A stretch of DNA of 10,179 nucleotides, from contig NZ_JBGFSK010000017.1 of NCBI RefSeq assembly GCF_041365945.1, forward strand, positions 2,555-12,733. Direction: 5' to 3'. The DNA is from Janibacter sp. GXQ6167 (GTDB lineage: Bacteria > Actinomycetota > Actinomycetes > Actinomycetales > Dermatophilaceae). Position numbers and translations under genes: made by a program. The first letter of the stretch is position 1, and each line of letters opens with the position of its first letter. Below, in pieces: positions 1 through 10,179 of the stretch. Below the pieces are notes generated by a model. It was not told the origin of the DNA. It was given only the letters and a program-made list of their open reading frames with translations, and made no database searches.

Positions 1-537
1 GCATCTTCGGACATTACATTCACCTTCTTCTGCTTTCTCTCACTGCCGCCCTTCCCCATGTGCCCGGCTTTCCCGGCCTCGGAGTACTACGACGGCTCCG
101 CCCCACCCGCACCCTTCGGCTGGCAACGCACCTATCCCCACCAATGCGGGGAGCGGAATGCGGATGGTTCCCACGTTCACTGTTGTTCGGTTGACGGGCG
201 AGGCGTCCGGCTTTACCCCTGCGGCATCGTCGTGGCTACGCCGTAGACCTTCACCACGACCTGCCGGACCCGACACATACCACCGTTCCGACAGTTCCCC
301 ACCCGCCACGACCATCAACGATGGCCCCGACAAGCGGTTACGCACCGCAAACCAGCCCCGATCCACCGGGTTAGAGCTGGGCGACGATCAAGAGGCTTTA
401 CGACACCGGTTCCTCTCGTACACCTTCCCGCCTTGCTCACCAGACACGGCCCATCCGGTAGTACTGGACCGTCCTGACTATGTCACGGCTGCTCCCACCC
501 ACCCCAGGCGTTCCCCCAGGACAGGCTGCCGTCAGCT

Positions 538-1123
538 TCACTCGGCCGCTACGACGGCCAATCGATCAAGGTCTCTCACCTCCATCCGATACAACAGCGC
601 CTCGTGGCGCACGACGTGCTCGTCGACACCGATCGTGGTGACCCCGTCGAACCGACCAGGATCGTCGATCAGGCGCCGCTTGCCCTCCGCGAGCACCGCA
701 GTGTTCGCGGCGCTCCAGGAAACCCCAAGACCGGCGGCGACACGGGTCACGGTGAGGTGGTCGACGACGATGCCCCGCAGCGCCCACTCCACGCCGAGGC
801 GGGAGATCTTCGCTCGTGGCGCGGCGGCGCGAGTCATGTCCCGCCGCCACGTCCGCCGGCAGTGCGCGCACCGGTAGCGGCGGACCCGGACCAGAAGCGT
901 TGTCGGCCTATGCCCGAACGGCTCATGCGCGAGTCGACGCGTCACCGTGTCCCGCGACACACCCCTCCGCCCCGCACTTCCGACACCAGGGGTCCACCTC
1001 GACCGACCGACACTCGATCATCGCCCGGTCCCGCTCGAGCAGCTGGCCGACCGCTTCGAGCCCGAGTTCATCGAGGCGGCAGAACGTGGTCAGGTCAGGG
1101 GTCGCGAAAGTAGGGTGGAGCAC
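538..1123 (-). pseudogene. ISL3-family transposase, N-terminal part only (zf-ISL3 + HTH region up to the VDEHVVRH block), with a frameshift near 950 and a premature stop at 538
   Basis: ORFs 923..1123(-) and 538..960(-) together read MLHPTFATPDLTTFCRLDELGLE...CRKCGAEGCVAGHGD / VTRRLAHEPFGHRPTTLLVRVRRYRCAHCRRTWRRD...IGVDEHVVRHEALLYRMEVRDLD. These match the ISL3 transposase motifs C-x2-C-G...GHG, RRxxC and IGVDEHxWRH. The two ORFs overlap in different frames, which implies a 1-nt frameshift. The DDE catalytic domain is absent. Confidence 0.75.
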
Positions 1124-1235
1124 GTCGAGGTCTTTCGGGATGGCGAGCGTGAAGAACTTCCATCATCCGGGAGACCTCGACCCCTACCCGGCTGCCAACG
1201 CGCTCACCCGACTACACCCTCATTCGTGAAGAGCC
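538..1235 (-). mobile_element. ISL3-family insertion sequence remnant: terminal inverted repeat GGCTCTTCAC (minus strand, ending at 1235) plus the 5' part of a transposase gene. The element may continue in degenerate form towards position 1.
   Basis: Minus-strand end reads GGGCTCTTCACGAATGAGGG, which matches the ISL3-family terminal IR consensus GGCTCTTCG. The transposase start lies about 110 nt inside the IR, as is usual for this family. The 8 bp just outside the IR (cgataaga, 1236-1243) are a plausible AT-rich target-site duplication. Confidence 0.7.
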
Positions 1236-1653
1236 CGATAAGACGGGCGACGTTGCGGCTGACGAGTTCGTCGCGCATCGCGCGGGTCAGGGCGGCGGAC
1301 AGTACGGTGCGGAACTTCTGTGCGGTGCGGATTGAGTGGCCCTCGTCGAGCAGCGCGCAGGCGGCGTTCTGCACGTCGCGCACGGTGAGCTGGGTCAGGC
1401 GCTTGCTGCCGATGCGAGGAAGGATGTGCAGTCGCACGACGCCCTCGTATCCCCGTGCGGTGTTGCGTCGGTTGCGGCGCGGCACGACTGTCTCTAGCCA
1501 CTGCTGCAGATAGCCGGCGACCGTGACCTGTGAGTTCGGGGTCAGGATGCCGCGGCCCTCGTGCCGCGGCCCGCCCGGGCGCTTGCGTCGCCTTGCGACC
1601 CGCCGGATCGGCTCGAAAAGACGTTCTGTGGTATATCTATTACGAGAGGCCAT
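1236..1653 (-). pseudogene. Tyrosine recombinase / phage-type integrase, N-terminal SAM-like core-binding domain only; the catalytic domain has been removed by the ISL3 insertion at 1235/1236
   Basis: From the Met at 1653 the frame reads MASRNRYTTERLFEP...SQVTVAGYLQQWLETVVPRRNRRNTARGYEGVVRLHILPRIGSKRLTQLTVRDVQNAACALLDEGHSIRTAQKFRTVLSAALTRAMRDELVSRNVARLI. This is a typical integrase N-terminal core-binding domain. The ORF then reads through the IS inverted repeat and stops at 1204. The region upstream of 1653 is antisense to a well-supported plus-strand gene, so 1653 is preferred over the ORF-track start at 1857. Confidence 0.7.
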
Positions 1654-1661
1654 ATACAGGA
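1635..1661 (+). promoter_or_regulatory. AT-rich motif copy A: ATCTATT-acgagag-GCCATATACAGGA. Putative promoter or operator immediately upstream of the plus-strand cargo block; it overlaps the integrase start codon on the opposite strand.
   Basis: A 7-mer and a 13-mer are shared exactly with 9264..9283 (minus strand) in the same orientation relative to the downstream gene. It is an AT-rich island in GC-rich DNA. Confidence 0.45.
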
Positions 1662-1714
1662 TGCACCTGGGCCTTGTCTGGGGGCTACCCAGATCGAGTC
1701 TGGAGGTGTACGGC

Positions 1715-2329
1715 GTGGCCGCGCGAGTCGTCGATGTGCGTTGTCCGGGATGCGGGAGCGCCTGGAGCACCAACCAGCAGTTCTGCCAGTACTGCGGTCG
1801 CCAGGTGCTGATCAGCTCGATGTCCGACCTGATCAGCCTGGAAGCGCGCGACCTCAAGAAGCACGTCCGTACCTACGAGGACGCGCTGGACGAGGGCGCC
1901 GATGATCCGAGCGTGCATGCGGCGCTCGGCATGTGCCTGCTCAAGCTGGGGCTGCGCGACAAGGCGCTGTCGCACTTCGAGGATGCGCTGCTCGATGACA
2001 TCGAGAACTCGGAACCGTACTTCTACGCCGCCGTCGCGTCGCTGGGTGGCAAGAAGCCGTTCCTGGTTCCGCTGGCTGGCATCCGCCGCGCGGAGGAGTA
2101 CCTCACGGCGGCGCTGCGGCTCGAGGAGCGCGGAATCTACGCCTACCTCTACGGGTACATCCGCTTCGACTACTACGAGCGCAAGTCGCTGAACGTCGAG
2201 CCGTCGTACCAGCACTACCTGCAGCAGGCAGTGCTTCGCGGTGTGACCGATCTGGACATCCAGACGCTGTTCGAGCTGCTGGAGATCGTCCCTTCGTCCG
2301 CTTCCATTCCGACCAGCGTTTCCGCCTGA
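1715..2329 (+). CDS. Zinc-ribbon (CPGCG-x9-FCQYCG) plus alpha-helical TPR-like domain protein. Alternative starts are ATG 1661 (possibly leaderless) or GTG 1706.
   Basis: ORF 1523..2329. GGAGG at 1702-1706 lies 8 nt before GTG 1715. N-terminal CxxC...CxxC zinc ribbon followed by helical repeats (LGMCLLKLGLRDKALSHFEDALL...YAYLYGYIRFDYYE). High GC3 from 1715 onwards; codons between 1661 and 1715 are rare (ctt, cta, aga, agt). Confidence 0.7.
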   Translation: MAARVVDVRCPGCGSAWSTNQQFCQYCGRQVLISSMSDLISLEARDLKKHVRTYEDALDEGADDPSVHAALGMCLLKLGLRDKALSHFEDALLDDIENSEPYFYAAVASLGGKKPFLVPLAGIRRAEEYLTAALRLEERGIYAYLYGYIRFDYYERKSLNVEPSYQHYLQQAVLRGVTDLDIQTLFELLEIVPSSASIPTSVSA

Positions 2330-2365
2330 CCCCTGTTCTAACCACCCGAGAGAGGTTCCTTCGCA

Positions 2366-3061
2366 ATGGCCATCAACTATGAGCGCAACAAGAAGTACTT
2401 CAAGCAGTCCAGCCCCAAGGCCGGCATCATCCTGATCGTGATCGGCCTGGTGCTGACGCTCGCCCTCCCCGAGGCGGGCAAGCTCGTCGGCATCCTGGGC
2501 ATCCTGGGTGGCGCGGCGCTGATCTACTTCCAGTTCGCGGGCAAGCCGAGCGACGCGGACATCGACTCGGACGCTGCTGCCGCCATCGCGGACGTGAAGA
2601 AGCGCGCGCTGGGCAAGCTCGGTCTGGACGAGGACGAGGTCAAGCTCATCGACCCGGTGATCGTTCACGGCTACTACTACAAGAACATCGCCTCGGGCGT
2701 GCAGGTCAAGCTCGGCAAGGACCGCGTCTTCCGTTCCTCGAACTACGAGGGCGTCGTGCTGTTCTTCAGCGAGCACCAGCTGCACGCGTTCAAGTTCCAG
2801 TTCTCTCTCGTCTCGCCGCAGGAGAGCCGCGAGCAGACCGACGAGTACTTCTACAAGGACGTCGTGTCGGTGGCGACGCAGTCGGAGACGTTCAAGATCA
2901 ACGACATCAAGGGCAACAGCCAGCAGGTCAACTTCGAGGAGTTCAAGCTCACCACCACGGGTGGCACCTCGATCACTTCGTCGATCCGCGACGAGGGCTC
3001 GGTCAGCCGCGTCATCTCCGGCGCGCGCAGCCTGATTCGCGAGAAGAAGATCGCGTCCTGA
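2366..3061 (+). CDS. Membrane protein: two N-terminal TM helices followed by a soluble ~170-aa domain of about 170 aa (possibly a bacterial PH-like / membrane-flanked domain); function unknown
   Basis: ATG 2366 with GAGAGAGG upstream. Hydrophobic stretches IILIVIGLVLTLAL and LVGILGILGGAALIYF. High GC3. Co-directional, 36 nt after the previous gene. Confidence 0.75.
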   Translation: MAINYERNKKYFKQSSPKAGIILIVIGLVLTLALPEAGKLVGILGILGGAALIYFQFAGKPSDADIDSDAAAAIADVKKRALGKLGLDEDEVKLIDPVIVHGYYYKNIASGVQVKLGKDRVFRSSNYEGVVLFFSEHQLHAFKFQFSLVSPQESREQTDEYFYKDVVSVATQSETFKINDIKGNSQQVNFEEFKLTTTGGTSITSSIRDEGSVSRVISGARSLIREKKIAS

Positions 3062-3076
3062 CCCCGAGTTCTCTGC

Positions 3077-3115
3077 GTGCCGGGGCCGGTCGGCAGTCGC
3101 CACCGGCTCCGGCAC
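3077..3115 (+). terminator. Strong GC-rich hairpin (14 bp stem including one G-U pair, 11-nt loop) 15 nt after the stop of the membrane-protein gene. Putative intrinsic terminator or intra-operon attenuator (I-shaped; only a weak U tract, ACCAAUUCC).
   Basis: GTGCCGG-G-GCCGGT [cggcagtcgcc] ACCGGC-T-CCGGCAC is perfectly self-complementary. It lies between 3061 and the ATPase start at 3157. Confidence 0.45.
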
Positions 3116-3156
3116 ACCAATTCCGCTGCCCGAGCGTGACGTGAGGAGTGTGCCGT

Positions 3157-5841
3157 ATGCCCGCAGGCGACGCGCCCCTGACGTTCACGCCTCTCGCGCA
3201 GGGTGAAGTAGCCGCTGCTACGGTGGTCGAGGTCGTCCGCATCCCGCACGTCTCCGTGCTGGGCGATGATCCGGCTGCCGAGCTGGTGCAGCAGTCCAAG
3301 CGGGACTTCGTCAGCCTGCTGTTCGAGGCGTACCAGTCGTACCGCGGACAGTACGAGGACGGCCCCGACCGAGCTAGCGACTGCGCTCTGGAACTGCTTT
3401 GGCAAGCACACCCCATTCAGGGCCAGCCGCACGCCGCCGACCTCACGCTATTCATCATCGTTCGCGCGATCGGCGCGAACCGGGACGACGCAGCGGCGGT
3501 TGTCAACGAGCTGCACGCTGTCGTGATCAGCGCGCTCACGCTCGGCGGCTTCGACTACGCAGATCGTCCTGCCTCCGCGATCGGCGCCCAGGCGGCGGAA
3601 CGGTCGGTTGCGCTCGTGAAGGAGGAGTGGATTGAGAACCTCGGCAACCAGATCCTGCCGAGCGCCTTCGCCTTCCACCGTATCCCCACGGGCAGCCGTG
3701 ATCTCTCACGTATCGCCAGCGCCCTAACCGAGGTGCCCGGTGCGTCCCTCTCGGTTCAGCTGATCCCGGCGACACTGGAGCCTGACGAGCGGACTGCTAT
3801 CGAGCAGCTGACGCTGGCGCTCACGACCCTCGCCAACGGTGTGACGGATCAGTCGATCGGTACCGTCAGCTTCACCGCGGCGAAGCGCCTCGCGGAGATG
3901 TACTCGTATCTGGAGGGGCACAAGGACTCGCCCCTGTTTCTGTTTAACGTCGTCGTCTCCGGGCCGAAGCTCGCCGTGCCGGTGATCGCCAACCGGGTGC
4001 TCGGTCACCTCTCCGCCGACGCCGAGGTAGGCGCGCTGGCGGCACGCTTCGTCGACGCCACAGCCCTGGTGCCACGAGGCGATGCGTCCTTCGTCGCTGC
4101 ACCGTGGCAGCTGAACGAGACGCTGCTCGACCAGACTCGTGATCCGTCGCTCTGGGCGGCGGGCCGCAATCCCGGTGAGGCATTCTACCGGCTGCCGTTC
4201 CTGCTGACGGCATTCGAGGCATCGGAGTTGTTCCGTCTGCCGATCGGCAGTGACACGGTCGGCGCCGGGCTGACGGTGAACACCACGACCCGGCACTCGC
4301 GCAACTACTCGGCCGGCGTGATCGGGAGCTCGAGCATCGAAGCCGGGCGACTCGCCGGGGCGGCCGAGGTCTCGATCGGGTTCGGGCATACCGACCTGAC
4401 CAAGCACGCTTTCGTCACGGGGACGCCCGGTTCGGGTAAGACGACGTTCACGGTCGGGCTGCTCGACCGGCTCTGGCACGAGCACGGCATCCCGTATCTG
4501 GTGATCGAGCCGGCGAAGAACGAGTACCGGGCGCTGATCGAGACGACGCCGGATCTGCAGGTGTTCACCCCGGGCAAGGATCATCTGTCTCCGCTTGTGC
4601 TGAACCCGTTCCTGCCGCCAGCGGGCGTGCGGGTGCAGAGCTACAAGTCGACCCTCAAGACGGCGTTCGCAGCCGCGGTCACGATGACGAGCCCCCTGGA
4701 CAAGATCTTCGAGGACGCCCTCTCAGCCACGTACTCGCGGTTTGGCTGGTTCGATGCCGACACAGCCGCCGATGGCCGTGAGGTGTTCTCTATCCGCGAC
4801 TTCCTGGCCGTTTTCCAGGAGACCTTCGTCCGCATCGGCTACACCGGAGACGCGGCCAACATCGGACGAGCAGGCCAGGTGCGCCTGCAGAGTCTGGTTG
4901 GCCTGTTCGACACCTACCCTTCGATCCCTGTCGAGGATCTGCTGTCGAAACCCACGGTAATCGAGCTGGCAGGGATCGAGAACAGCGACGACAAGGCCCT
5001 CTACATCGCGCTCATCCTGCTGCAGGTCCTCGCCTACGTGAACGCCAACGTCGCCGGCGACGGGAAACTCAAGCACGTCCTCCTGCTCGAAGAAGCCCAC
5101 GTCTTGCTCGACGCCGACGACGCCAGCGGACCGGGCGAAGCGGACCCCGCCGCGATTGCGAAGAAGCTGCTCAAACGCATGTTGGCCGAGATCCGCTCCT
5201 ACGGCGTCGGCATCATCGTGGCCGATCAGTCGCCACGCAAGGTCGGCTCGGACGTGGTGGCGCTCACGAACATCAAGCTCGGGTTCCGGCTGGTCGAGGC
5301 CGCAGACAAGGAGATCCTGGCCGAGAGCACCAACATGAGCGACGCGCAGCGCGAGCGGCTGGCGCGGCTCCGGCCGGGCGAGGCACTCCTGTTCTACGAC
5401 CGCCTCGAAGACCCCGAGGAGATCGCCACAGCCGACTGGCGCGCCCAGCGCGGCATCCCGACGTTCGTGTCCGATGAGGAGATCGCCCGAAAGGTCACTT
5501 ACTGGCAGCGGCACCCGGAACTGCTCATGCCATACCCGGAGAGCGCCTACATCGGGGGCTGGGACGCCTCGGTTGCCGGTGCGGGCAAGGAGATCGCCCG
5601 GCGCCTCTTCGCCGCGCACGTCCCGGCCGGCGATGTCGGCGTCAAGAGATTCGGCAGCATCTACCGGCAGCTCGATGCGTTCATCGCCGCCGAACTTCCC
5701 GCGTCGATCCCGAACACGCCGGCCCTGCGGCGAGCGGTCAAGGTCAACTTCCTGCGGCTGGTCAAGTACGAGTCGCAGATCCCACTGTCGGACGCCACGA
5801 TCCACAAGACCCTCGAAGCCGAGAGGAGCCGCACAGCATGA
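3157..5841 (+). CDS. FtsK/HerA-superfamily (DUF87 / HerA-like) P-loop ATPase of about 894 aa, with a large (~420 aa) N-terminal region of unknown function
   Basis: Walker A HAFVTGTPGSGKTTF (about aa 425). DEAH-like Walker B VLLLEEAHVLL. The blocks LVIEPAKNEY and GIIVADQSP also fit HerA/VirB4-type ATPases. GAGGAG at 3143-3148 lies 8 nt upstream of ATG 3157 (the ORF track began at GTG 3148). The stop overlaps the next start (ATGA). Confidence 0.85.
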   Translation: MPAGDAPLTFTPLAQGEVAAATVVEVVRIPHVSVLGDDPAAELVQQSKRDFVSLLFEAYQSYRGQYEDGPDRASDCALELLWQAHPIQGQPHAADLTLFIIVRAIGANRDDAAAVVNELHAVVISALTLGGFDYADRPASAIGAQAAERSVALVKEEWIENLGNQILPSAFAFHRIPTGSRDLSRIASALTEVPGASLSVQLIPATLEPDERTAIEQLTLALTTLANGVTDQSIGTVSFTAAKRLAEMYSYLEGHKDSPLFLFNVVVSGPKLAVPVIANRVLGHLSADAEVGALAARFVDATALVPRGDASFVAAPWQLNETLLDQTRDPSLWAAGRNPGEAFYRLPFLLTAFEASELFRLPIGSDTVGAGLTVNTTTRHSRNYSAGVIGSSSIEAGRLAGAAEVSIGFGHTDLTKHAFVTGTPGSGKTTFTVGLLDRLWHEHGIPYLVIEPAKNEYRALIETTPDLQVFTPGKDHLSPLVLNPFLPPAGVRVQSYKSTLKTAFAAAVTMTSPLDKIFEDALSATYSRFGWFDADTAADGREVFSIRDFLAVFQETFVRIGYTGDAANIGRAGQVRLQSLVGLFDTYPSIPVEDLLSKPTVIELAGIENSDDKALYIALILLQVLAYVNANVAGDGKLKHVLLLEEAHVLLDADDASGPGEADPAAIAKKLLKRMLAEIRSYGVGIIVADQSPRKVGSDVVALTNIKLGFRLVEAADKEILAESTNMSDAQRERLARLRPGEALLFYDRLEDPEEIATADWRAQRGIPTFVSDEEIARKVTYWQRHPELLMPYPESAYIGGWDASVAGAGKEIARRLFAAHVPAGDVGVKRFGSIYRQLDAFIAAELPASIPNTPALRRAVKVNFLRLVKYESQIPLSDATIHKTLEAERSRTA

Positions 5842-7019
5842 GCGACTACGGCACCGACATTGCAGACGCCCCCGTCGACACCGGCGCGGACGTCAGCGTG
5901 CCCGATACGACCGACTACGCCGACGAGCCGGTCGACCTGGCCGAGACCCCGCCCGAGTCGGAGGCGCCCGAGGCCGAGGAGGCGCCGCCCGCCGAAGACC
6001 TCTCGGAGCCCGCAGCAGATGAACTGAGCGGCACGGCGGAGACGCCGGCGGATGCGGAGGCACCCGTCGACCTGGGCGCGGCCCCGGAAACGGCCGACGC
6101 CGCCCCGGAACAGCCCCAGGACTGGCAGGAGGGCGAGGTCGTCGATCTCGGCGACGACGCTGCCCCCGACGCCCCGCAGGAGGACGAGACCGCCGAGGCG
6201 GACGATCCTGCCGGGCGCGACCTGGGTGATCCCGACCTGGCCGACAGCCCGGAGGCCGAGGCTCCCACGGATAGCGCCGGTGAGGATCTGACGACACCGA
6301 CGGACGACGAACCGGGCGCCGGTGATGCGCCGACTGACGCCGACGAGCAGGTACCTGAGGCGGCGGAGATTGAGCCCGAGGCCGCAAACGACGTGACGGA
6401 TGCCGAACCCGAGCCCAGGGTCGATGAGTTGACAGAGGCGGCCCGGGATGAGGCCCGCCCCGCCGACGAGCTGCGCGCCGAGTACTACGCCGACGTGGCT
6501 GATGTGCTGGCCGATGACACACCATCCGACGCCGAGCCGGTCGAGACGCAGGACACTCCCGGAGCAGACGCTGCCGAGGCGCCGGAGTCGAGCGATCACG
6601 CGGACGCCGCCAATGACCGCAGCAACTCCCCAGAGAACGAGGCACTGACCTCGGCGCTAGCCGAGAAAGGCCTGTCGCTGGAGCCGGTCGATCGCTTCGA
6701 CTACAGCGACAACCCGGTTCTCGGCTACCGCGAGTCCGCCCCGCCCGAAGACGTCGCGTACGCCGTCAACGCCTGGAACGACGAGATCGCGCCCGGCATC
6801 GCGGCCGGCGCGACCCGTGAGGACTTCGCCGCCTACGACCAGGAGCACGGCCTCGAAGGGCAGCGGCAGCTGGCCGGCGTCTACGACTACATGCTCGGCG
6901 GCGACGCGATCAAGAGCGGCGGAGAGCGCGAGGACGGATCGCTCGACGTCACCGGCGGCAGGCACCGCCTGGAACAGGCGCGTCTGAACGGCGTCCAGTA
7001 CCTGCCCGTGAGGAAGTAG
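5838..7019 (+). CDS. Highly acidic protein: about 270 aa of D/E/P/A-rich low-complexity (disordered) sequence followed by a ~120-aa globular C-terminal domain ending in a ParB/sulfiredoxin-like GGRHRLEQARLNG motif
   Basis: ATG 5838 overlaps the TGA of the ATPase gene (translational coupling). GAGAGGAG lies 9 nt upstream. The C-terminus reads DVTGGRHRLEQARLNGVQYLPV, compared with the ParB/Srx consensus h-x-G-[EG]-[RH]-R-x-x-A-x-x-x-G-x-x-x-IP. High GC3 throughout. Confidence 0.75.
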   Translation: MSDYGTDIADAPVDTGADVSVPDTTDYADEPVDLAETPPESEAPEAEEAPPAEDLSEPAADELSGTAETPADAEAPVDLGAAPETADAAPEQPQDWQEGEVVDLGDDAAPDAPQEDETAEADDPAGRDLGDPDLADSPEAEAPTDSAGEDLTTPTDDEPGAGDAPTDADEQVPEAAEIEPEAANDVTDAEPEPRVDELTEAARDEARPADELRAEYYADVADVLADDTPSDAEPVETQDTPGADAAEAPESSDHADAANDRSNSPENEALTSALAEKGLSLEPVDRFDYSDNPVLGYRESAPPEDVAYAVNAWNDEIAPGIAAGATREDFAAYDQEHGLEGQRQLAGVYDYMLGGDAIKSGGEREDGSLDVTGGRHRLEQARLNGVQYLPVRK

Positions 7020-7056
7020 CCGACCCGGCATCCGATCCGACGAAAGCGAACACCGT

Positions 7057-8256
7057 ATGAAGATCTACGACGTCATCAAGAACGAGACCGGCCTTCTCAA
7101 CGACGGCCTGGGCTCGAAGGCCGTGCTGGCGTGGAAGTTCACCGGTGAGGACTTCAACGACAACACGCAGCTGATCGTCTCCGAATCGGAGGAGGCGATC
7201 TTCATCCGCGACGGCATCGCCGTGGCGACCTTCGGCGGCGGCCGCTACACGCTCAACAGCAACAACCACCCCTTCATCGGCAGGCTGAGGAACCTGCTCT
7301 CCGGCGGGGTGAGCGCGTTCAGCTCGCGGGTGTACTTCGTCAACATCGATCACAAGTTGGAACTGCTGTGGGGCACCGACAGCCCGATCCAGCTCCGCGA
7401 CCCGGTCTGGAGCCTGCAGACCAGCGTGCAGGCGCGCGGCTCGTACTCGATCCAGGTGACGGACTCCAAGAAGTTCCTGATCAAACTGCTCGGCACCAAC
7501 ATCCAGGTTTTCGACGAGCAGCAGCTCGCCGGCTACTTCCGCAGCGCCTTCTCGCAGCACATCCGCGGACAGATCGCCCGCTACATCCGCGACTCCGGCC
7601 AGGAGATCCTGGAGATCACCTCGGACATCGAGCTGCTGGCCGAGCAGCTGCACCCGAGGCTCGCACCGCTGCTGGATGAGTACGGCGTGAAGCTCGTCAA
7701 CTTCTACATCGCCGCGATCGACATCCCCACCGACGACCCGAACCGCCAAGTGCTGGAGAACTCGATCGCACAGAAGCAGGCCAAGCTGCAGAGCGCGCAG
7801 GGCGATAAGGCCGTCATGGGGCTGCTCGGGGAAGACTGGGCCAGGCAGCAGTCGGCCACCATCCTCACCGAGCTCGCCAAGAACCCCGGCGCGGGTGGCG
7901 TGGCTTCCGCGGGTGCCGCAGCAGGCGTTGGCCTGGCTGCGGGCAGCGTCTTCGGGGAGATGGCGACGCAGATGTTCACGCGCCCCGTCCAGCCCGCAGG
8001 CGACCCGATGGCTGGCAATGTCGGGCGCAACCGCACATCGCGCTTCTCGCCCGCAGAGCCTGCCGCGCCGGCCGCCGCCGAGACGTGTCCGGGCTGCGGC
8101 GCGAGCGTGGCGGCGGGAGCGAAGTTCTGCCCGGAGTGCGGCAACCGTCTCGCACCTCAGCAGGTGCCCTGCTCGGGTTGCGGAACCGCAATCGCGAGCA
8201 CGGCCAAGTTCTGCCCCGAATGCGGAACGCCGAACAACCAGGGAGCATCCTCATGA
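7057..8256 (+). CDS. SPFH/band-7 (stomatin-prohibitin-like) domain protein with two C-terminal zinc ribbons (COG4260-like membrane-protease-subunit family)
   Basis: N-terminus MKIYDVIKNETGLLNDGLGSKAVLAWKF...SESEEAIFIRDGIAV. The C-terminus carries CPGCGASVAAGAKFCPECG and CSGCGTAIASTAKFCPECG. The stop overlaps the next start. Confidence 0.8.
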   Translation: MKIYDVIKNETGLLNDGLGSKAVLAWKFTGEDFNDNTQLIVSESEEAIFIRDGIAVATFGGGRYTLNSNNHPFIGRLRNLLSGGVSAFSSRVYFVNIDHKLELLWGTDSPIQLRDPVWSLQTSVQARGSYSIQVTDSKKFLIKLLGTNIQVFDEQQLAGYFRSAFSQHIRGQIARYIRDSGQEILEITSDIELLAEQLHPRLAPLLDEYGVKLVNFYIAAIDIPTDDPNRQVLENSIAQKQAKLQSAQGDKAVMGLLGEDWARQQSATILTELAKNPGAGGVASAGAAAGVGLAAGSVFGEMATQMFTRPVQPAGDPMAGNVGRNRTSRFSPAEPAAPAAAETCPGCGASVAAGAKFCPECGNRLAPQQVPCSGCGTAIASTAKFCPECGTPNNQGASS

Positions 8257-8930
8257 CCCGCACGATCCTGCGCGCCATCCTGTGGCTCGTCCCCATCGCC
8301 GTCTACGTCGCCATCTTCCTCATCCTCGAGGCCCCGCAGGGCGCGACGTTCTGGACGTCCGCACTGCTGCTGGCGTTCGCCTACGTCATGCTCGCCGTCA
8401 GTTTCGTCGCCGTGCCGCGCAGTCGGATAGCCGCGATCCTGGCCATGCCCCTGATCCTGGTGGCGAGCATCTACTTCACTGCCGAGCTCATCGCGGCCAG
8501 CATCTTCATCTACGTGCAGGACATTCCATACCCGTGGGTGATCATCACGCAGCTGATCCTGGCCGCGATCTTCCTCGTCGTGTTCCTCACCACCTTGTTG
8601 TCCAACGAGGCCATCGCCGCCCAGATCGAGACCCAGCACGCCGACGTCCTGGTGATCAAGAGCGCCGTCACCCGCATCACGGCCCTGGGACGTGTCGCCC
8701 ACGATCCGCGCCTGGCGAAGTCGCTGGACGGGCTGGCCGAGGAGTTCCGCTACAGCCCGACGATGCGCTCGAACCAGGTGCGCGAAGTCGACGCGCAGAT
8801 CGCCGTGCAGCTCGAGCGACTGGAGAGCCTCGTCCACATCCAAGCTTCGCAAGAGGATACCGTCGGCCAGATCGCGGCGATATCCGGGGCGCTCGCTTCA
8901 CGCAACGAGGCGATCAAGCTCCGCCAGTAG
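8253..8930 (+). CDS. Integral membrane protein (about 4 TM helices) with a C-terminal amphipathic / coiled-coil cytoplasmic domain; translationally coupled partner of the SPFH protein
   Basis: ATG 8253 overlaps the TGA of the SPFH gene (tcATGA). Hydrophobic segments LWLVPIAVYVAIFLIL, LLLAFAYVMLAVSFVAV, AILAMPLILVASIYF and ITQLILAAIFLVVFLTTLL, followed by a helical tail (QIAVQLERLESLVHIQASQEDTVGQIAAISGALASRNEAIKLRQ). Confidence 0.75.
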   Translation: MTRTILRAILWLVPIAVYVAIFLILEAPQGATFWTSALLLAFAYVMLAVSFVAVPRSRIAAILAMPLILVASIYFTAELIAASIFIYVQDIPYPWVIITQLILAAIFLVVFLTTLLSNEAIAAQIETQHADVLVIKSAVTRITALGRVAHDPRLAKSLDGLAEEFRYSPTMRSNQVREVDAQIAVQLERLESLVHIQASQEDTVGQIAAISGALASRNEAIKLRQ

Positions 8931-9226
8931 GAGGAGGTGCATAGGGCAGACCCGCGCGCAGATCCGGCCACGGCTGCGGCACCAGCTGGTCGAGCGTGAC
9001 ACCGAGCACCTGCGCGATGGCCATGATCTTGCGCAGACTCGGGTTGGCCGGAGTCTCCGGCATCGACTCGCCCTTCTCGAACTTCTGGAAGGTGTAGCGC
9101 GTGAGCCCAGCGGCGTAGGCAACCTGCTCCTGGGTGAGTCCACGGTCGATCCGGTGCCGCTGAATGCTGGCACCAAGTTCGCGCGCGTACTGGGGCCAAG
9201 GGCCATCGGGTCGTCGTTTTTGCCAT
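8914..9226 (-). pseudogene. XRE-family (Cro/CI-type) helix-turn-helix transcriptional regulator. The reading frame is interrupted by a 1-nt frameshift inside a 5-nt homopolymer (plus-strand T5 at 9217-9221). The 3' end overlaps the end of the membrane-protein gene convergently by 17 nt.
   Basis: The HTH frame reads ...RELGASIQRHRIDRGLTQEQVAYAAGLTRYTFQKFEKGESMPETPANPSLRKIMAIAQVLGVTLDQLV, but has no ATG/GTG/TTG before Met-56. ATG 9226 is in the -1 frame; removing one A from the A5 run gives an intact 104-aa protein, MAKRRPDGPWPQYARELGASIQRH.... This frame is not in the ORF track because it lacks a start. Confidence 0.6.
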
Positions 9227-9263
9227 CACCCCAGGCTGAGCAGGTGGCCTCCCGGAACGAACC

Positions 9264-9283
9264 TCCTGTATATGGCAATAGAT
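9264..9283 (-). promoter_or_regulatory. AT-rich motif copy B: ATCTATTGCCATATACAGGA (minus strand), 37 nt upstream of the XRE start. Putative promoter or operator.
   Basis: Exact 13-mer GCCATATACAGGA and 7-mer ATCTATT shared with 1635..1661, in the same orientation relative to the downstream gene. Confidence 0.45.
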
Positions 9284-9376
9284 CCGCTCGATCAGTAACC
9301 CCGCGTGGCCGTCGGCGACGATAGGCGCATGAATGAAGAAGGCCCGGGAGCCGCTCCAGCCGAGAACTCGTGGTTC

Positions 9377-9919
9377 TCAAGGCCGGGGCGAACTCCCGAG
9401 CAGGGCGTGCAGCTGATGGCTGGCTGGTGAGACGGCGCGAATGCGGGTCTCGTGGAGGGCGGGGTCGTGCGTGCGCAGGTACATCGCCCAGAACGCCGCG
9501 TCGGCATACGTTGTGTGCAGATCTGACTGCGCCCGCCAGCCGCTCGAAGCGGTGCGCCGGTAGCCGACTTCGTAAGGGCCGCCATGCAGGAGTTCCTGCA
9601 CGAGTGATGCCGGGACGTCACCGACCGGGTAGGTGCTGCCGATATCGCCCACGAGGAGCACGTCGCCGTGCAACGCCGGCCGCTGCCTTGAAGTGGTGTC
9701 CCAGAACCAGCGCAGCGACGAGGCGCGCAGGTTCATCGGGAGCCCGTTTCGGCGGTCGTCGGCGTCGAGCCACATCGTGACACCTCGGCTCTCGATGTCG
9801 ATCGGGATCACCAGATCAGCGAGCTGCTGAATGTCTGCGAACCCTGCGACCTCCCGCGTTTCGAGTTGTTGCTCGATCTGCGCCGGGATGAGAACAGCCG
9901 TGACGGTCTCACCATTCAC
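9377..9919 (-). CDS. DUF3846-family protein (a small family common in actinobacterial phages and integrative elements) with a ~80-aa C-terminal extension
   Basis: GTG start at 9919 with GGGTGAG upstream. The N-terminal 100 aa (TAVLIPAQIEQQLETREVAGFADIQQLADLVIPIDIE...GVTMWLDADDRRNGLPMNLRASSLRWFWD...GDVLLVGDIGSTYPVGDVPASLVQELL) fit my recollection of the DUF3846 pattern (VxPADG...VxE...LxxLxxxVGGxIE...xWxNEEGxLxxLPxNxxAT.L). Confidence 0.65.
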   Translation of the reverse strand: MNGETVTAVLIPAQIEQQLETREVAGFADIQQLADLVIPIDIESRGVTMWLDADDRRNGLPMNLRASSLRWFWDTTSRQRPALHGDVLLVGDIGSTYPVGDVPASLVQELLHGGPYEVGYRRTASSGWRAQSDLHTTYADAAFWAMYLRTHDPALHETRIRAVSPASHQLHALLGSSPRP

Positions 9920-10179
9920 GACGGCTCACCCGCAGTGAGGCAGTAGTGCCCCGTAGCGTGGTGTAGCCCGCGGTGGCCGGCTCGTCGTTCGCGACGTAGG
10001 CGCGGTCACCGTGTGATCCTTCGAGAAGTCTCTTACCTCCACTCGAAAGGCATCATCACGATGACCGCTCCTCATATTGTCGACAGTGAGGATGGGTTTT
10101 GGCATCCCCGGGTGGAGGTCTGACTCGATTGTCGACGGGCGTCAGCGACTGCCTTTGCATGGGATTCGTCGATCTTCAG

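What the first reader, a model, noticed from the sequence alone, without database searches (positions are those of the whole stretch)
8914..9226. XRE regulator reading frame broken in a T5/A5 homopolymer, and convergent 17-nt overlap with the last cargo gene
With four instead of five A's after ATG GCA the gene encodes an intact 104-aa Cro/CI-type repressor; as written it is frameshifted. This is either a sequencing or assembly indel, or a genuine inactivation of the element's repressor, which would derepress the cargo operon. Its 3' end also overlaps the membrane-protein gene stop on the opposite strand, which is a potential site for transcriptional interference.
Basis: seen in the sequence. 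Interest (0 to 1): 0.5.

Follow-up and report, generated by a model that had tools for sequence, protein, structure and literature searches.

The report
Frameshifted regulator gene, repeatedly inactivated elsewhere
A small DNA-binding regulator gene next to a conserved six-gene operon is broken by one extra A just after its start codon, and because related copies of the same cassette carry three other independent knock-out mutations, this is probably a real, ordinary loss-of-function allele rather than a sequencing slip.

Summary
On the minus strand, ATG 9226 to TGA 8914 encodes a Cro/C1-type HTH protein whose frame is broken by an A5 run (9217-9221). Removing one A gives a 103-aa protein (not 104). 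All aligned homologues start MAK/VAK-(R/K/H)-x-P at this ATG. The HTH frame is closed by TGA 9228-9226 and has no ATG/GTG/TTG before Met55, so no functional product is expected.

The window comes from a 12.7-kb contig of Janibacter sp. GXQ6167. The regulator and the convergent six-gene operon travel together as a seven-gene cassette. I found it in eight lineages, always with the same 17-nt stop-to-stop overlap.

Four of the eight lineages carry different null mutations in the regulator:
- +1 A (this window)
- Q12* followed by IS insertion (Microbacterium sp. HA-8)
- a 5-bp duplication (six independent runs)
- S54* plus changes at invariant residues

The operon is intact in the three null lineages whose contigs cover it. 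I therefore favour a genuine recent null allele (about 0.65) over an assembly indel (about 0.25). Only the reads can settle this.

A 16-nt motif lies 51 nt upstream of every homologue's start and recurs at the operon head. That makes control of the operon plausible but untested. Programmed recoding and phase variation are not supported.

The parts
8914..9226 (-). Frameshifted Cro/C1-type (XRE) HTH regulator gene; conceptual repair gives 103 aa
   Evidence: HTH_31 38 bits, HTH_3 34 bits; 105 homologues, same start
9217..9221 (-). A5 run (T5 on + strand) holding the extra base. Cassette relatives read GCA AAG / GCG AAG / GCA AAA C / GCG AAA C at this position, and more distant homologues L004 and L005 read GCA AAA CGA
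9224..9226 (-). Conserved start codon (ATG) of the family
9226..9228 (-). TGA that closes the HTH reading frame immediately upstream, so no upstream in-frame start exists
9061..9063 (-). First canonical in-frame start of the HTH frame (Met55); yields only a 49-aa C-terminal fragment
   Evidence: this fragment is what gene callers report for this contig and for other null alleles
9262..9277 (-). 16-nt motif TGCCATATACAGGAGG, starting 51 nt upstream of the start codon as in every homologue examined
1648..1663 (+). Second copy of the motif (GGCCATATACAGGATG) at the head of the six-gene operon
   Evidence: 22 bits; 0 of 300 shuffles reach it; conserved in L081 and L001, variant in L101
8914..8930 (.). 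17-nt convergent overlap of the regulator's 3' end with the 3' end of the last operon gene
   Evidence: the same 17 nt in six other lineages
1715..8930 (+). Six-gene operon, all ORFs intact. It encodes a zinc-ribbon/TPR protein (probable start GTG 1715), a 231-aa membrane protein, an 897-aa HerA-like ATPase, a 393-aa acidic protein, a 399-aa SPFH + double zinc-ribbon protein and a 225-aa membrane protein
9377..9919 (-). Upstream co-directional gene, 180 aa, weak DUF3846 similarity, intact here

Best explanation
The gene is a 103-codon Cro/C1-type helix-turn-helix regulator that belongs with the adjacent six-gene HerA-like/SPFH operon as one seven-gene cassette. In this Janibacter contig a single A inserted into an A-run after codon 3 (GCA AAA CGA to GCA AAA ACG A) shifts the frame. 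Ribosomes starting at the conserved ATG make an unrelated 158-aa polypeptide, and the HTH frame has no usable start before Met55, so no DNA-binding protein is made. I judge this a genuine, recent loss-of-function allele. It is one of at least four independent knock-outs of this regulator among eight lineages of the cassette, and the operon is intact in the three null lineages whose contigs cover it. Inferred but not shown: the intact protein binds near a 16-nt motif found both upstream of its own gene and at the operon head. On that reading, its loss changes operon expression, most simply by derepression. Its loss is at least tolerated and may be favoured.
For: Shown:
- Frameshift, conserved start, and no alternative start.
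- The HTH frame is the coding frame.
- Source is a 12,733-nt contig of Janibacter sp. GXQ6167. That size suggests a short-read draft, in which errors in 5-base runs are rare. Consecutive WP accessions skip the regulator.
- No other frameshift in the six operon genes or the DUF3846-like gene, about 8 kb. Four of the six other runs of 5 or more bases lie in those genes, which read through.
- Independent null alleles of the same cassette regulator: CAG to TAG at codon 12 in L109, with the same TAG plus a 2.67-kb two-transposase insertion flanked by CTAG in Microbacterium sp. HA-8. A 5-bp tandem duplication at codons 37-38 is seen identically in six runs from at least three series. TCA to TGA at codon 54 plus Q32L and Y37D at family-invariant positions in L108.
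- The operon is intact in HA-8 and L102.
- The motif occurs at -51 of every homologue and again at the operon head.
Against: - No reads are available, and an indel in the only A/T run of 5 or more in the window is also where an assembly error would fall.
- On the window's branch, codons 13-103 carry 7 synonymous and 0 nonsynonymous changes, and only one near-invariant residue differs (N66K). The break is therefore either very recent or not real.
- The ISL3 remnant in the same window also has a +1 insertion, beside a G-run. This could hint at insertion-type errors, although that element is already dead.
- The regulatory link rests on a shared motif that is not an obvious palindrome. No binding or expression data exist.
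- The gene is convergent with the operon, not divergent from it.
Confidence: 0.65

Rival explanations
1. Sequencing or assembly artefact: the organism has A4 and an intact 103-aa regulator, and the extra A is a homopolymer miscall.
For: - The indel sits in the longest A/T run of the window.
- The rest of the gene shows no decay: 7 synonymous and 0 nonsynonymous changes on this branch, and no invariant residue changed.
- A second +1 insertion beside a G-run exists in the ISL3 remnant.
Against: - About 8 kb of adjacent coding sequence, with four runs of 5 or more bases and dozens of 4-base runs, has no frameshift.
- A 4-to-5 overcall is uncommon on current platforms, and the 12.7-kb contig suggests a short-read draft (inference).
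- Real null alleles of this same gene are frequent in sister cassettes.
Confidence: 0.25
2. The mutation is real but selectively neutral. The regulator is redundant, for example covered in trans by a paralogue or orphaned when the surrounding mobile element decayed, so its loss has no effect on the operon.
For: - HA-8 carries an intact paralogue (77% identity) with the same upstream motif elsewhere in its chromosome, next to TrbL/DUF3846 conjugation-type genes and a type I R-M system.
- The window is a graveyard of mobile-element fragments: group II intron, ISL3, truncated integrase and an IS256 end.
- HA-8's neighbouring DUF3846-like gene is also frameshifted.
Against: - The family is otherwise strongly conserved, with 27 invariant columns.
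- All the non-cassette genomic loci examined are intact, against 4 of 8 cassette lineages null.
- The motif at the operon head argues for a functional link.
This rival overlaps the best explanation in accepting a real null allele. It differs only on the consequence.
Confidence: 0.3
3. Programmed recoding or a phase-variable switch: the A-run is a designed slippery site, so the protein is still made by +1 ribosomal or transcriptional slippage, or the gene toggles on and off.
For: - A P-site tRNA-Lys on AAA (9220-9218) could re-pair with AAA (9219-9217) and would then read CGA CGA CCC, producing exactly MAKRRP (sequence).
- AAA is a rare codon here, 5 against 71 AAG.
- Actinobacteria are known to use homopolymer indels as reversible switches (PMC10334774).
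Against: - None of 105 homologues, and none of the other loci examined, has the shifted arrangement, and close relatives have no A-run at all (GCA AAG, GCG AAG).
- The next 0-frame codon, ACG, is common (64 uses). There is no stop or hungry codon and no stimulatory structure.
- Documented mycobacterial phase variation uses tracts of 7 bp or more, and this run is 5.
- The other null alleles are nonsense, duplication and IS events, not slippage.
Confidence: 0.03

Closest known systems
XRE / Cro-C1-type HTH transcriptional regulators (Pfam HTH_31 PF13560, HTH_3 PF01381)
   Same: The repaired product matches both models above their gathering scores across residues 16-81. It is small and single-domain. 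Homologues are named 'helix-turn-helix transcriptional regulator' by their sources.
   Different: The window's copy is not an intact member, because the frame is broken after codon 3. The family has an extra conserved segment (KGESMPxTPANPSL) and a conserved N-terminal MAKRRPxGxW and C-terminal PxPWPDLRAG that generic models do not cover.
Restriction-modification controller (C) proteins, e.g. C.AhdI (1y7y), C.BclI (2b5a), C.Esp1396I (4ia8, 4f8d)
   Same: They are among the top solved-structure matches of the family profile (E about 1e-5 to 1e-3), with weak PADLOC 'Control_protein' hits. They have similar size, with an upstream site near their own gene. One paralogue (HA-8, L090) sits directly upstream of hsdM-hsdS-hsdR on the same strand.
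   Different: There are no R-M genes in this window. The gene is convergent with the operon it accompanies. The conserved upstream motif is not a C-box-like palindrome. The similarity is at the level of any Cro/C1 HTH.
Mobile-element immunity repressors (phage CI/Cro, ICEBs1 ImmR) and defence-island HTH regulators (CapH of CBASS)
   Same: It is a small HTH protein associated with horizontally moving gene cassettes, with a weak PADLOC capH hit (2.4e-06) and a sub-threshold NCBIfam RstR repressor hit. Loss would be expected to derepress its targets.
   Different: It has no C-terminal oligomerisation or S24 peptidase domain, and no ImmA/CapP-type metalloprotease partner nearby. All named-family hits are far below the curated cut-offs.
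Homopolymeric-tract phase variation in Actinomycetota (e.g. M. tuberculosis glpK 7C tract; PMC10334774)
   Same: It is a one-base indel in a homopolymer near the 5' end of a gene, in an actinobacterium, silencing the gene.
   Different: The tract is only 5 bases (4 before the insertion), against 7 or more in the documented cases. Relatives lack the tract, and there is no evidence of length heterogeneity.

Membership tests
XRE / Cro-C1 HTH regulators (Pfam HTH_31, HTH_3) | HTH domain matching the Pfam model above its gathering score | tested here: met
   HTH_31 38.0 bits (cut-off 27), HTH_3 34.1 bits (23), HTH_26 32.3 bits (22), on the conceptually repaired product
XRE / Cro-C1 HTH regulators (Pfam HTH_31, HTH_3) | Uninterrupted reading frame from a start codon through the HTH | tested here: not met
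   the extra A at 9217-9221 puts the HTH out of frame with ATG 9226. TGA 9228-9226 closes the HTH frame, and the first in-frame start is Met55
R-M controller (C) proteins | Gene adjacent to and co-oriented with restriction/modification genes | tested here: not met
   no methyltransferase or endonuclease in the window. Only a paralogue in HA-8 is next to hsdMSR
R-M controller (C) proteins | Palindromic C-box operator upstream of its own gene | tested here: inconclusive
   the conserved upstream motif TGCCATATACAGGAGG is not palindromic. Lineage-specific near-palindromes (e.g. CAGGAGGCCACCTG in L005) lie just downstream of it, but binding is untested
CI / ImmR-type mobile-element repressors | C-terminal oligomerisation or peptidase domain, or a partner anti-repressor protease (ImmA/CapP type) | tested here: not met
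   the protein is 103 aa with the HTH only, and neighbours have no peptidase domain
Type II antitoxins of HipB / MqsA type | Score above the curated family cut-off and an adjacent toxin gene | tested here: not met
   37.8 bits against cut-off 71.65 (Y4mF/HipB-type) and 25.3 against 61.8 (MqsA). No toxin-like neighbour
Homopolymeric-tract phase variation | Tract long enough for frequent slippage (7 bp or more in the actinobacterial survey) and length variation among close relatives | tested here: not met
   the run is 5. Cassette relatives read AAAG, GAAG, AAAAC or GAAAC, and none shows a run longer than 4
Programmed +1 ribosomal frameshifting (prfB-like) | Shift site conserved among homologues, with a stop or slow 0-frame codon at the site | tested here: not met
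   all homologues are in one frame, and the following 0-frame codon ACG is abundant (64 uses)
Known anti-phage defence systems (PADLOC-DB v2) | Operon proteins matching the component models of a described system | tested here: not met
   only the ATPase hits generic HerA/mad8 models, and the five other proteins have no hit

The most novel reading that the evidence does not exclude
Loss of this regulator is not decay but adaptation. The regulator normally keeps the HerA-like/SPFH six-gene operon off through the shared 16-nt promoter-proximal motif. Lineages repeatedly gain fitness, for example against phage or membrane stress, by knocking it out. That would explain four independent null alleles beside an operon that is intact wherever it could be checked.
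Probability: 0.2. Interest if true: 0.55.

Novelty: new member of a known kind. Interest (0 to 1): 0.33.

Why it matters
On its own, this is one more frameshifted regulator gene in a mobile-element-rich region. It is useful mainly as an annotation call: pseudogene, conserved start at 9226, 103 codons.

What gives it some value is the comparative pattern. The same regulator has been inactivated at least four separate ways in sister copies of a cassette that has moved between Microbacterium and Janibacter at 85-90% nucleotide identity. The uncharacterised six-gene operon beside it is intact in the three null lineages that could be checked. A motif found upstream of every homologue's start also sits at the operon head.

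This gives natural on/off pairs and a candidate operator for testing what the operon does and how it is controlled.

Tried and rejected
- **Exact-protein look-ups** of window proteins in the contig index found nothing. The cluster look-up did identify the source as Janibacter sp. GXQ6167. A literature search for the strain found no paper, so the sequencing platform is unknown.
- **Whole-window DNA searches.** The plasmid search found only mobile-element fragments, and the phage search found nothing. The viral-contig pattern scan found nothing.
- **Rfam** at gathering thresholds gave no hit.
- **Promoter and terminator scans** of 8700-9500 found none. Folding of the overlap and of the 5' leader was not different from shuffles, so there is no evidence for a terminator or a structured leader.
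- **A conserved upstream ORF** between the motif and the start was considered. It exists in L081 but not in the window, L002 or L006, so it was rejected.
- **The 217-aa 'integrase' ORF 1204-1857.** Its first 81 codons are antisense to the operon's first gene and are shared with loci that have no integrase. Only about 1204-1570 is an integrase fragment.
- **P0019 (85 aa)** looked like another truncated allele but is intact, with a GTG start. The gene caller had taken an internal ATG.
- **PADLOC and NCBIfam** gave no specific family for the regulator or for five of the six operon proteins.
- **A DUF3846 literature search** gave nothing relevant.

Full report
**1. Observation.**
The minus strand between 9229 and 8914 reads GTG ATG GCA AAA ACG ACG ACC CGA TGG CCC. 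The five-A run occupies 9217-9221 and is the only A/T homopolymer of 5 or more in the window. There are seven runs of 5 or more of any base.

From residue 4 onward the helix-turn-helix protein is encoded one base downstream of the ATG frame. That frame is closed just upstream by TGA 9228-9226. It has no ATG, GTG or TTG until ATG 9063, which would give only a 49-aa C-terminal fragment. The ATG frame itself stays open to 8750, giving a 158-aa out-of-frame product.

Deleting one A gives a 103-residue protein (104 codons with the stop). It matches HTH_31, HTH_3 and HTH_26 above their gathering scores. GC content by codon position after the run (0.72/0.53/0.74) has the coding pattern only in the HTH frame.

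**2. The start codon is right.**
A search of public proteins gave 105 homologues. Most are 92-105 aa and come from Microbacterium, Bifidobacterium, Herbiconiux, Agreia and Aeromicrobium. In an alignment of 26 of them, every sequence begins M/V-A/S/P-K/R followed by basic residues, invariant P6 and invariant W10. That is exactly what ATG 9226 plus the repaired frame encodes. No homologue starts elsewhere in a way that would rescue the frame as written.

**3. Source and context.**
Exact matches to five window proteins identify the source as Janibacter sp. GXQ6167 (Intrasporangiaceae), on a 12,733-nt contig. The accessions WP_370895061 and 063 to 066 run in gene order across the operon and the next gene, with none for the regulator. 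This fits the annotators having issued no protein for it (inference).

Window 1567-9940 is 84-90% identical in DNA to loci in Microbacterium sp. HA-8 and in several metagenome or run assemblies, so the segment has moved between families.

It comprises six co-directional genes, all intact here:
- a zinc-ribbon/TPR protein
- a 231-aa membrane protein
- an 897-aa HerA-like ATPase
- a 393-aa acidic protein
- a 399-aa SPFH plus double-zinc-ribbon protein
- a 225-aa membrane protein

The convergent regulator follows. The sequence upstream of the regulator differs between lineages: DUF3846-like genes, a NYN-domain gene, or an ISL3 end. The regulator, the operon and the 17-nt overlap stay together, so the regulator belongs to a seven-gene cassette rather than to a particular backbone.

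Its last 10 or so residues (GLPYAPPPTGGA) are specific to the cassette. Other homologues end just after WPDLRAG.

In the window the cassette is hemmed in by mobile-element debris:
- the 5' part of a group II intron (1-612, minus strand)
- an ISL3 transposase remnant (604-1238)
- a tyrosine-integrase fragment (about 1204-1570)
- an IS256 left end (9948-10084)

**4. Real mutation or artefact?**
Reads are not available, so this cannot be settled here.

For an artefact:
- The indel lies in a homopolymer.
- The gene shows no other decay. On the window's branch, codons 13-103 have 7 synonymous and 0 nonsynonymous changes where the two outgroups agree.
- Only one near-invariant residue differs, N66K.
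- The dead ISL3 remnant also carries a +1 insertion next to a G-run.

For a real mutation:
- About 8 kb of adjacent coding sequence has no frameshift, although it contains four runs of 5 or more bases and many of 4.
- A 12.7-kb contig ending in repeats looks like a short-read draft, where 5-base runs are read reliably (inference).
- Above all, the same gene is demonstrably knocked out in sister cassettes.

**5. Recurrent inactivation.**
Aligning the regulator from eight cassette lineages shows four intact and four null.

Intact:
- L081 group
- L089
- L095/L096, which have a GTG start (the gene caller had chosen an internal ATG)
- L097/L101

Null, each by a different lesion:
- **Window:** +1 A after codon 3.
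- **L109 and Microbacterium sp. HA-8:** CAG to TAG at codon 12. In the HA-8 complete genome the resulting CTAG is duplicated on either side of a 2.67-kb insertion carrying two transposase genes, one DUF772/DDE_Tnp_1 and one DUF4096/DDE_Tnp_1_2. This lineage also has Q47R at an invariant position.
- **L102-L107:** a 5-bp tandem duplication (CGCCG) at codons 37-38. It is identical in six assemblies of different sequencing runs (SRR29782968/970/983/984, DRR438470, SRR22098413), so it is not an assembly accident.
- **L108:** TCA to TGA at codon 54, together with Q32L and Y37D at invariant positions.

The six-gene operon is intact in the window, HA-8 and L102. L108 and L109 are too short to tell. 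HA-8's neighbouring DUF3846-like gene has a 1-nt deletion outside any homopolymer.

By contrast, all non-cassette homologues seen in genomes were intact. That is roughly 0 of 11 against 4 of 8, a rough comparison with some ascertainment bias.

This pattern makes a real null allele the better reading for the window. I put it at about 0.65, against about 0.25 for an artefact.

**6. Does it control the operon?**
A 16-nt motif, TGCCATATACAGGAGG with minor variants, starts exactly 51 nt upstream of the start codon in every Microbacterium and Bifidobacterium homologue examined, although the intervening sequence is not conserved.

In a position-weight scan it occurs once per locus, with two exceptions:
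- The cassette has a second copy, GGCCATATACAGGATG, at the head of the operon. It lies at window 1648-1663 on the + strand and at the same place in L081 and L001. It scores 22 bits, and none of 300 shuffles reached that score.
- L010 has a second copy 2.3 kb upstream.

In the more diverged L101 cassette the operon head has the variant GTTATACAGGAGGCCAC. A GAGGCCAC element accompanies the motif at both sites.

The first operon gene probably starts at GTG 1715. GGAGG lies 8 nt upstream of it, and it aligns with the ATG start in L101. That puts the motif about 50 nt upstream, as for the regulator.

This is sequence-level support for shared control of the regulator's own promoter and the operon promoter. 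Whether the motif is an operator or a promoter element is unknown, as is whether the protein represses. The motif is not a clear palindrome and does not fit a sigma-70 -10/-35 pattern.

**7. The overlap.**
The 17-nt stop-to-stop overlap is real and is conserved in all lineages examined. No intrinsic terminator or unusually stable structure lies in or around it. Convergent transcripts would therefore be expected to run into each other, but nothing here tests interference.

**8. Recoding and phase variation.**
A +1 slip of tRNA-Lys from AAA to the overlapping AAA would regenerate MAKRRP. However, no homologue has the shifted layout. The closest relatives lack the run altogether. The following codon is common. 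The other null alleles are nonsense, duplication and IS events. Documented actinobacterial phase variation involves tracts of 7 bp or more (PMC10334774). I give this reading about 3%.

**9. Comparison with known families.**
The protein is a member of the Cro/C1 (XRE) HTH superfamily. The best solved-structure matches of the family profile are R-M controller proteins and SinR, at E of about 1e-5 to 1e-3. NCBIfam and PADLOC hits (RstR, HipB-type, CapH, control proteins) are all far below their cut-offs.

It lacks the extra domain or partner protease of CI/ImmR/CapH systems, and it lacks an adjacent R-M system or toxin gene. I therefore file it only as an XRE-family regulator, here as a pseudogene. 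The operon matches no described defence system in PADLOC v2 beyond a generic HerA-like ATPase.

**10. Verdict.**
The feature is an ordinary kind of thing: a frameshift null allele of a small regulator in a region full of mobile-element fragments. It has one useful twist. Loss of this regulator is recurrent across copies of a horizontally mobile cassette whose uncharacterised operon stays intact where it could be checked. Interest is modest, at 0.33.

Noticed in passing
window 1715-8930 (+): An uncharacterised six-gene operon: zinc-ribbon/TPR protein, membrane protein, 897-aa HerA-like ATPase, acidic protein, SPFH + double zinc-ribbon protein, membrane protein. It is conserved at 85-90% nucleotide identity between Janibacter and Microbacterium and in several metagenomes. 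Only the ATPase hits PADLOC (mad8/HerA). It is a possible novel defence or membrane-stress module.
   Followed up: partly
window 9262-9277 (-) and 1648-1663 (+); L002-L010, L090-L094 at about -51 from the regulator start: The 16-nt motif TGCCATATACAGGAGG lies at a fixed 51 nt upstream of every homologue's start in Microbacterium and Bifidobacterium. A second copy lies at the head of the six-gene operon. It is not palindromic and not sigma-70-like, and its role (operator or promoter element) is unknown.
   Followed up: partly
L010 7640-7655: A second perfect copy of the motif lies 2.3 kb upstream of the regulator gene in Microbacterium sp. NPDC076895. It is followed by a low-GC stretch with no clear ORF.
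   Followed up: no
window 1-612 (minus strand): This segment is 72-75% identical to the region just 5' of ltrA in Streptomyces and Rhodococcus plasmid group II introns. It is the 5' part of an intron inserted into the ISL3 transposase gene, and the ltrA ORF would lie beyond the left end of the window. There is no Rfam hit at gathering threshold.
   Followed up: partly
window 604-1238 (minus strand): An ISL3-family transposase remnant is cut by the group II intron at about 604-612. It carries its own +1 insertion beside a G-run near 950 (GAGGGGTGTG against GAGGGC-GTG in a Glutamicibacter plasmid copy).
   Followed up: partly
window about 1204-1570 (minus strand): A tyrosine-integrase fragment (SAM-like and central domains only). 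It is truncated at its 3' side by the ISL3 element and replaced at its 5' side by the cassette's upstream region. The first 81 codons of the 217-aa ORF are antisense to the first operon gene and are not integrase.
   Followed up: partly
window 9948-10084: The left terminal region and the first codons (MTAPHIVD) of an IS256-family element, 83-87% identical to copies on Kocuria and Microbacterium plasmids. The sequence diverges after 10084. It replaces the first DUF3846 gene found at this place in L081 and HA-8.
   Followed up: partly
L001 6601-7149 (Microbacterium sp. HA-8): The DUF3846-like gene upstream of the regulator has a 1-nt deletion (TGGCTCGAC to TGG-TCGAC) outside any homopolymer. The regulator side of the cassette is therefore decaying in HA-8 while the operon stays intact.
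   Followed up: yes
L090 (Microbacterium sp. HA-8, second locus): An intact paralogue of the regulator (77% identity, same upstream motif) lies between TrbL-like and DUF3846 conjugation-type genes and a type I R-M system (hsdM, hsdS, hsdR). This suggests the family marks the boundary between a conjugative-element backbone and its cargo.
   Followed up: no
L102-L107, about 40-60 nt upstream of the regulator start: In the lineage with the 5-bp duplication, the end of an ISL3-type transposase gene abuts the motif, whose first bases are changed (CCCCATATACACGAGG). The regulator's upstream region may therefore be disrupted there as well.
   Followed up: no
proteins P0097, P0102, P0103: Further truncated or chimaeric family members exist in public gene calls: a 64-aa form ending PARPCC, a 146-aa form with an unrelated N-terminus, and a 57-aa form. 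They may be additional disrupted alleles in other contexts.
   Followed up: no
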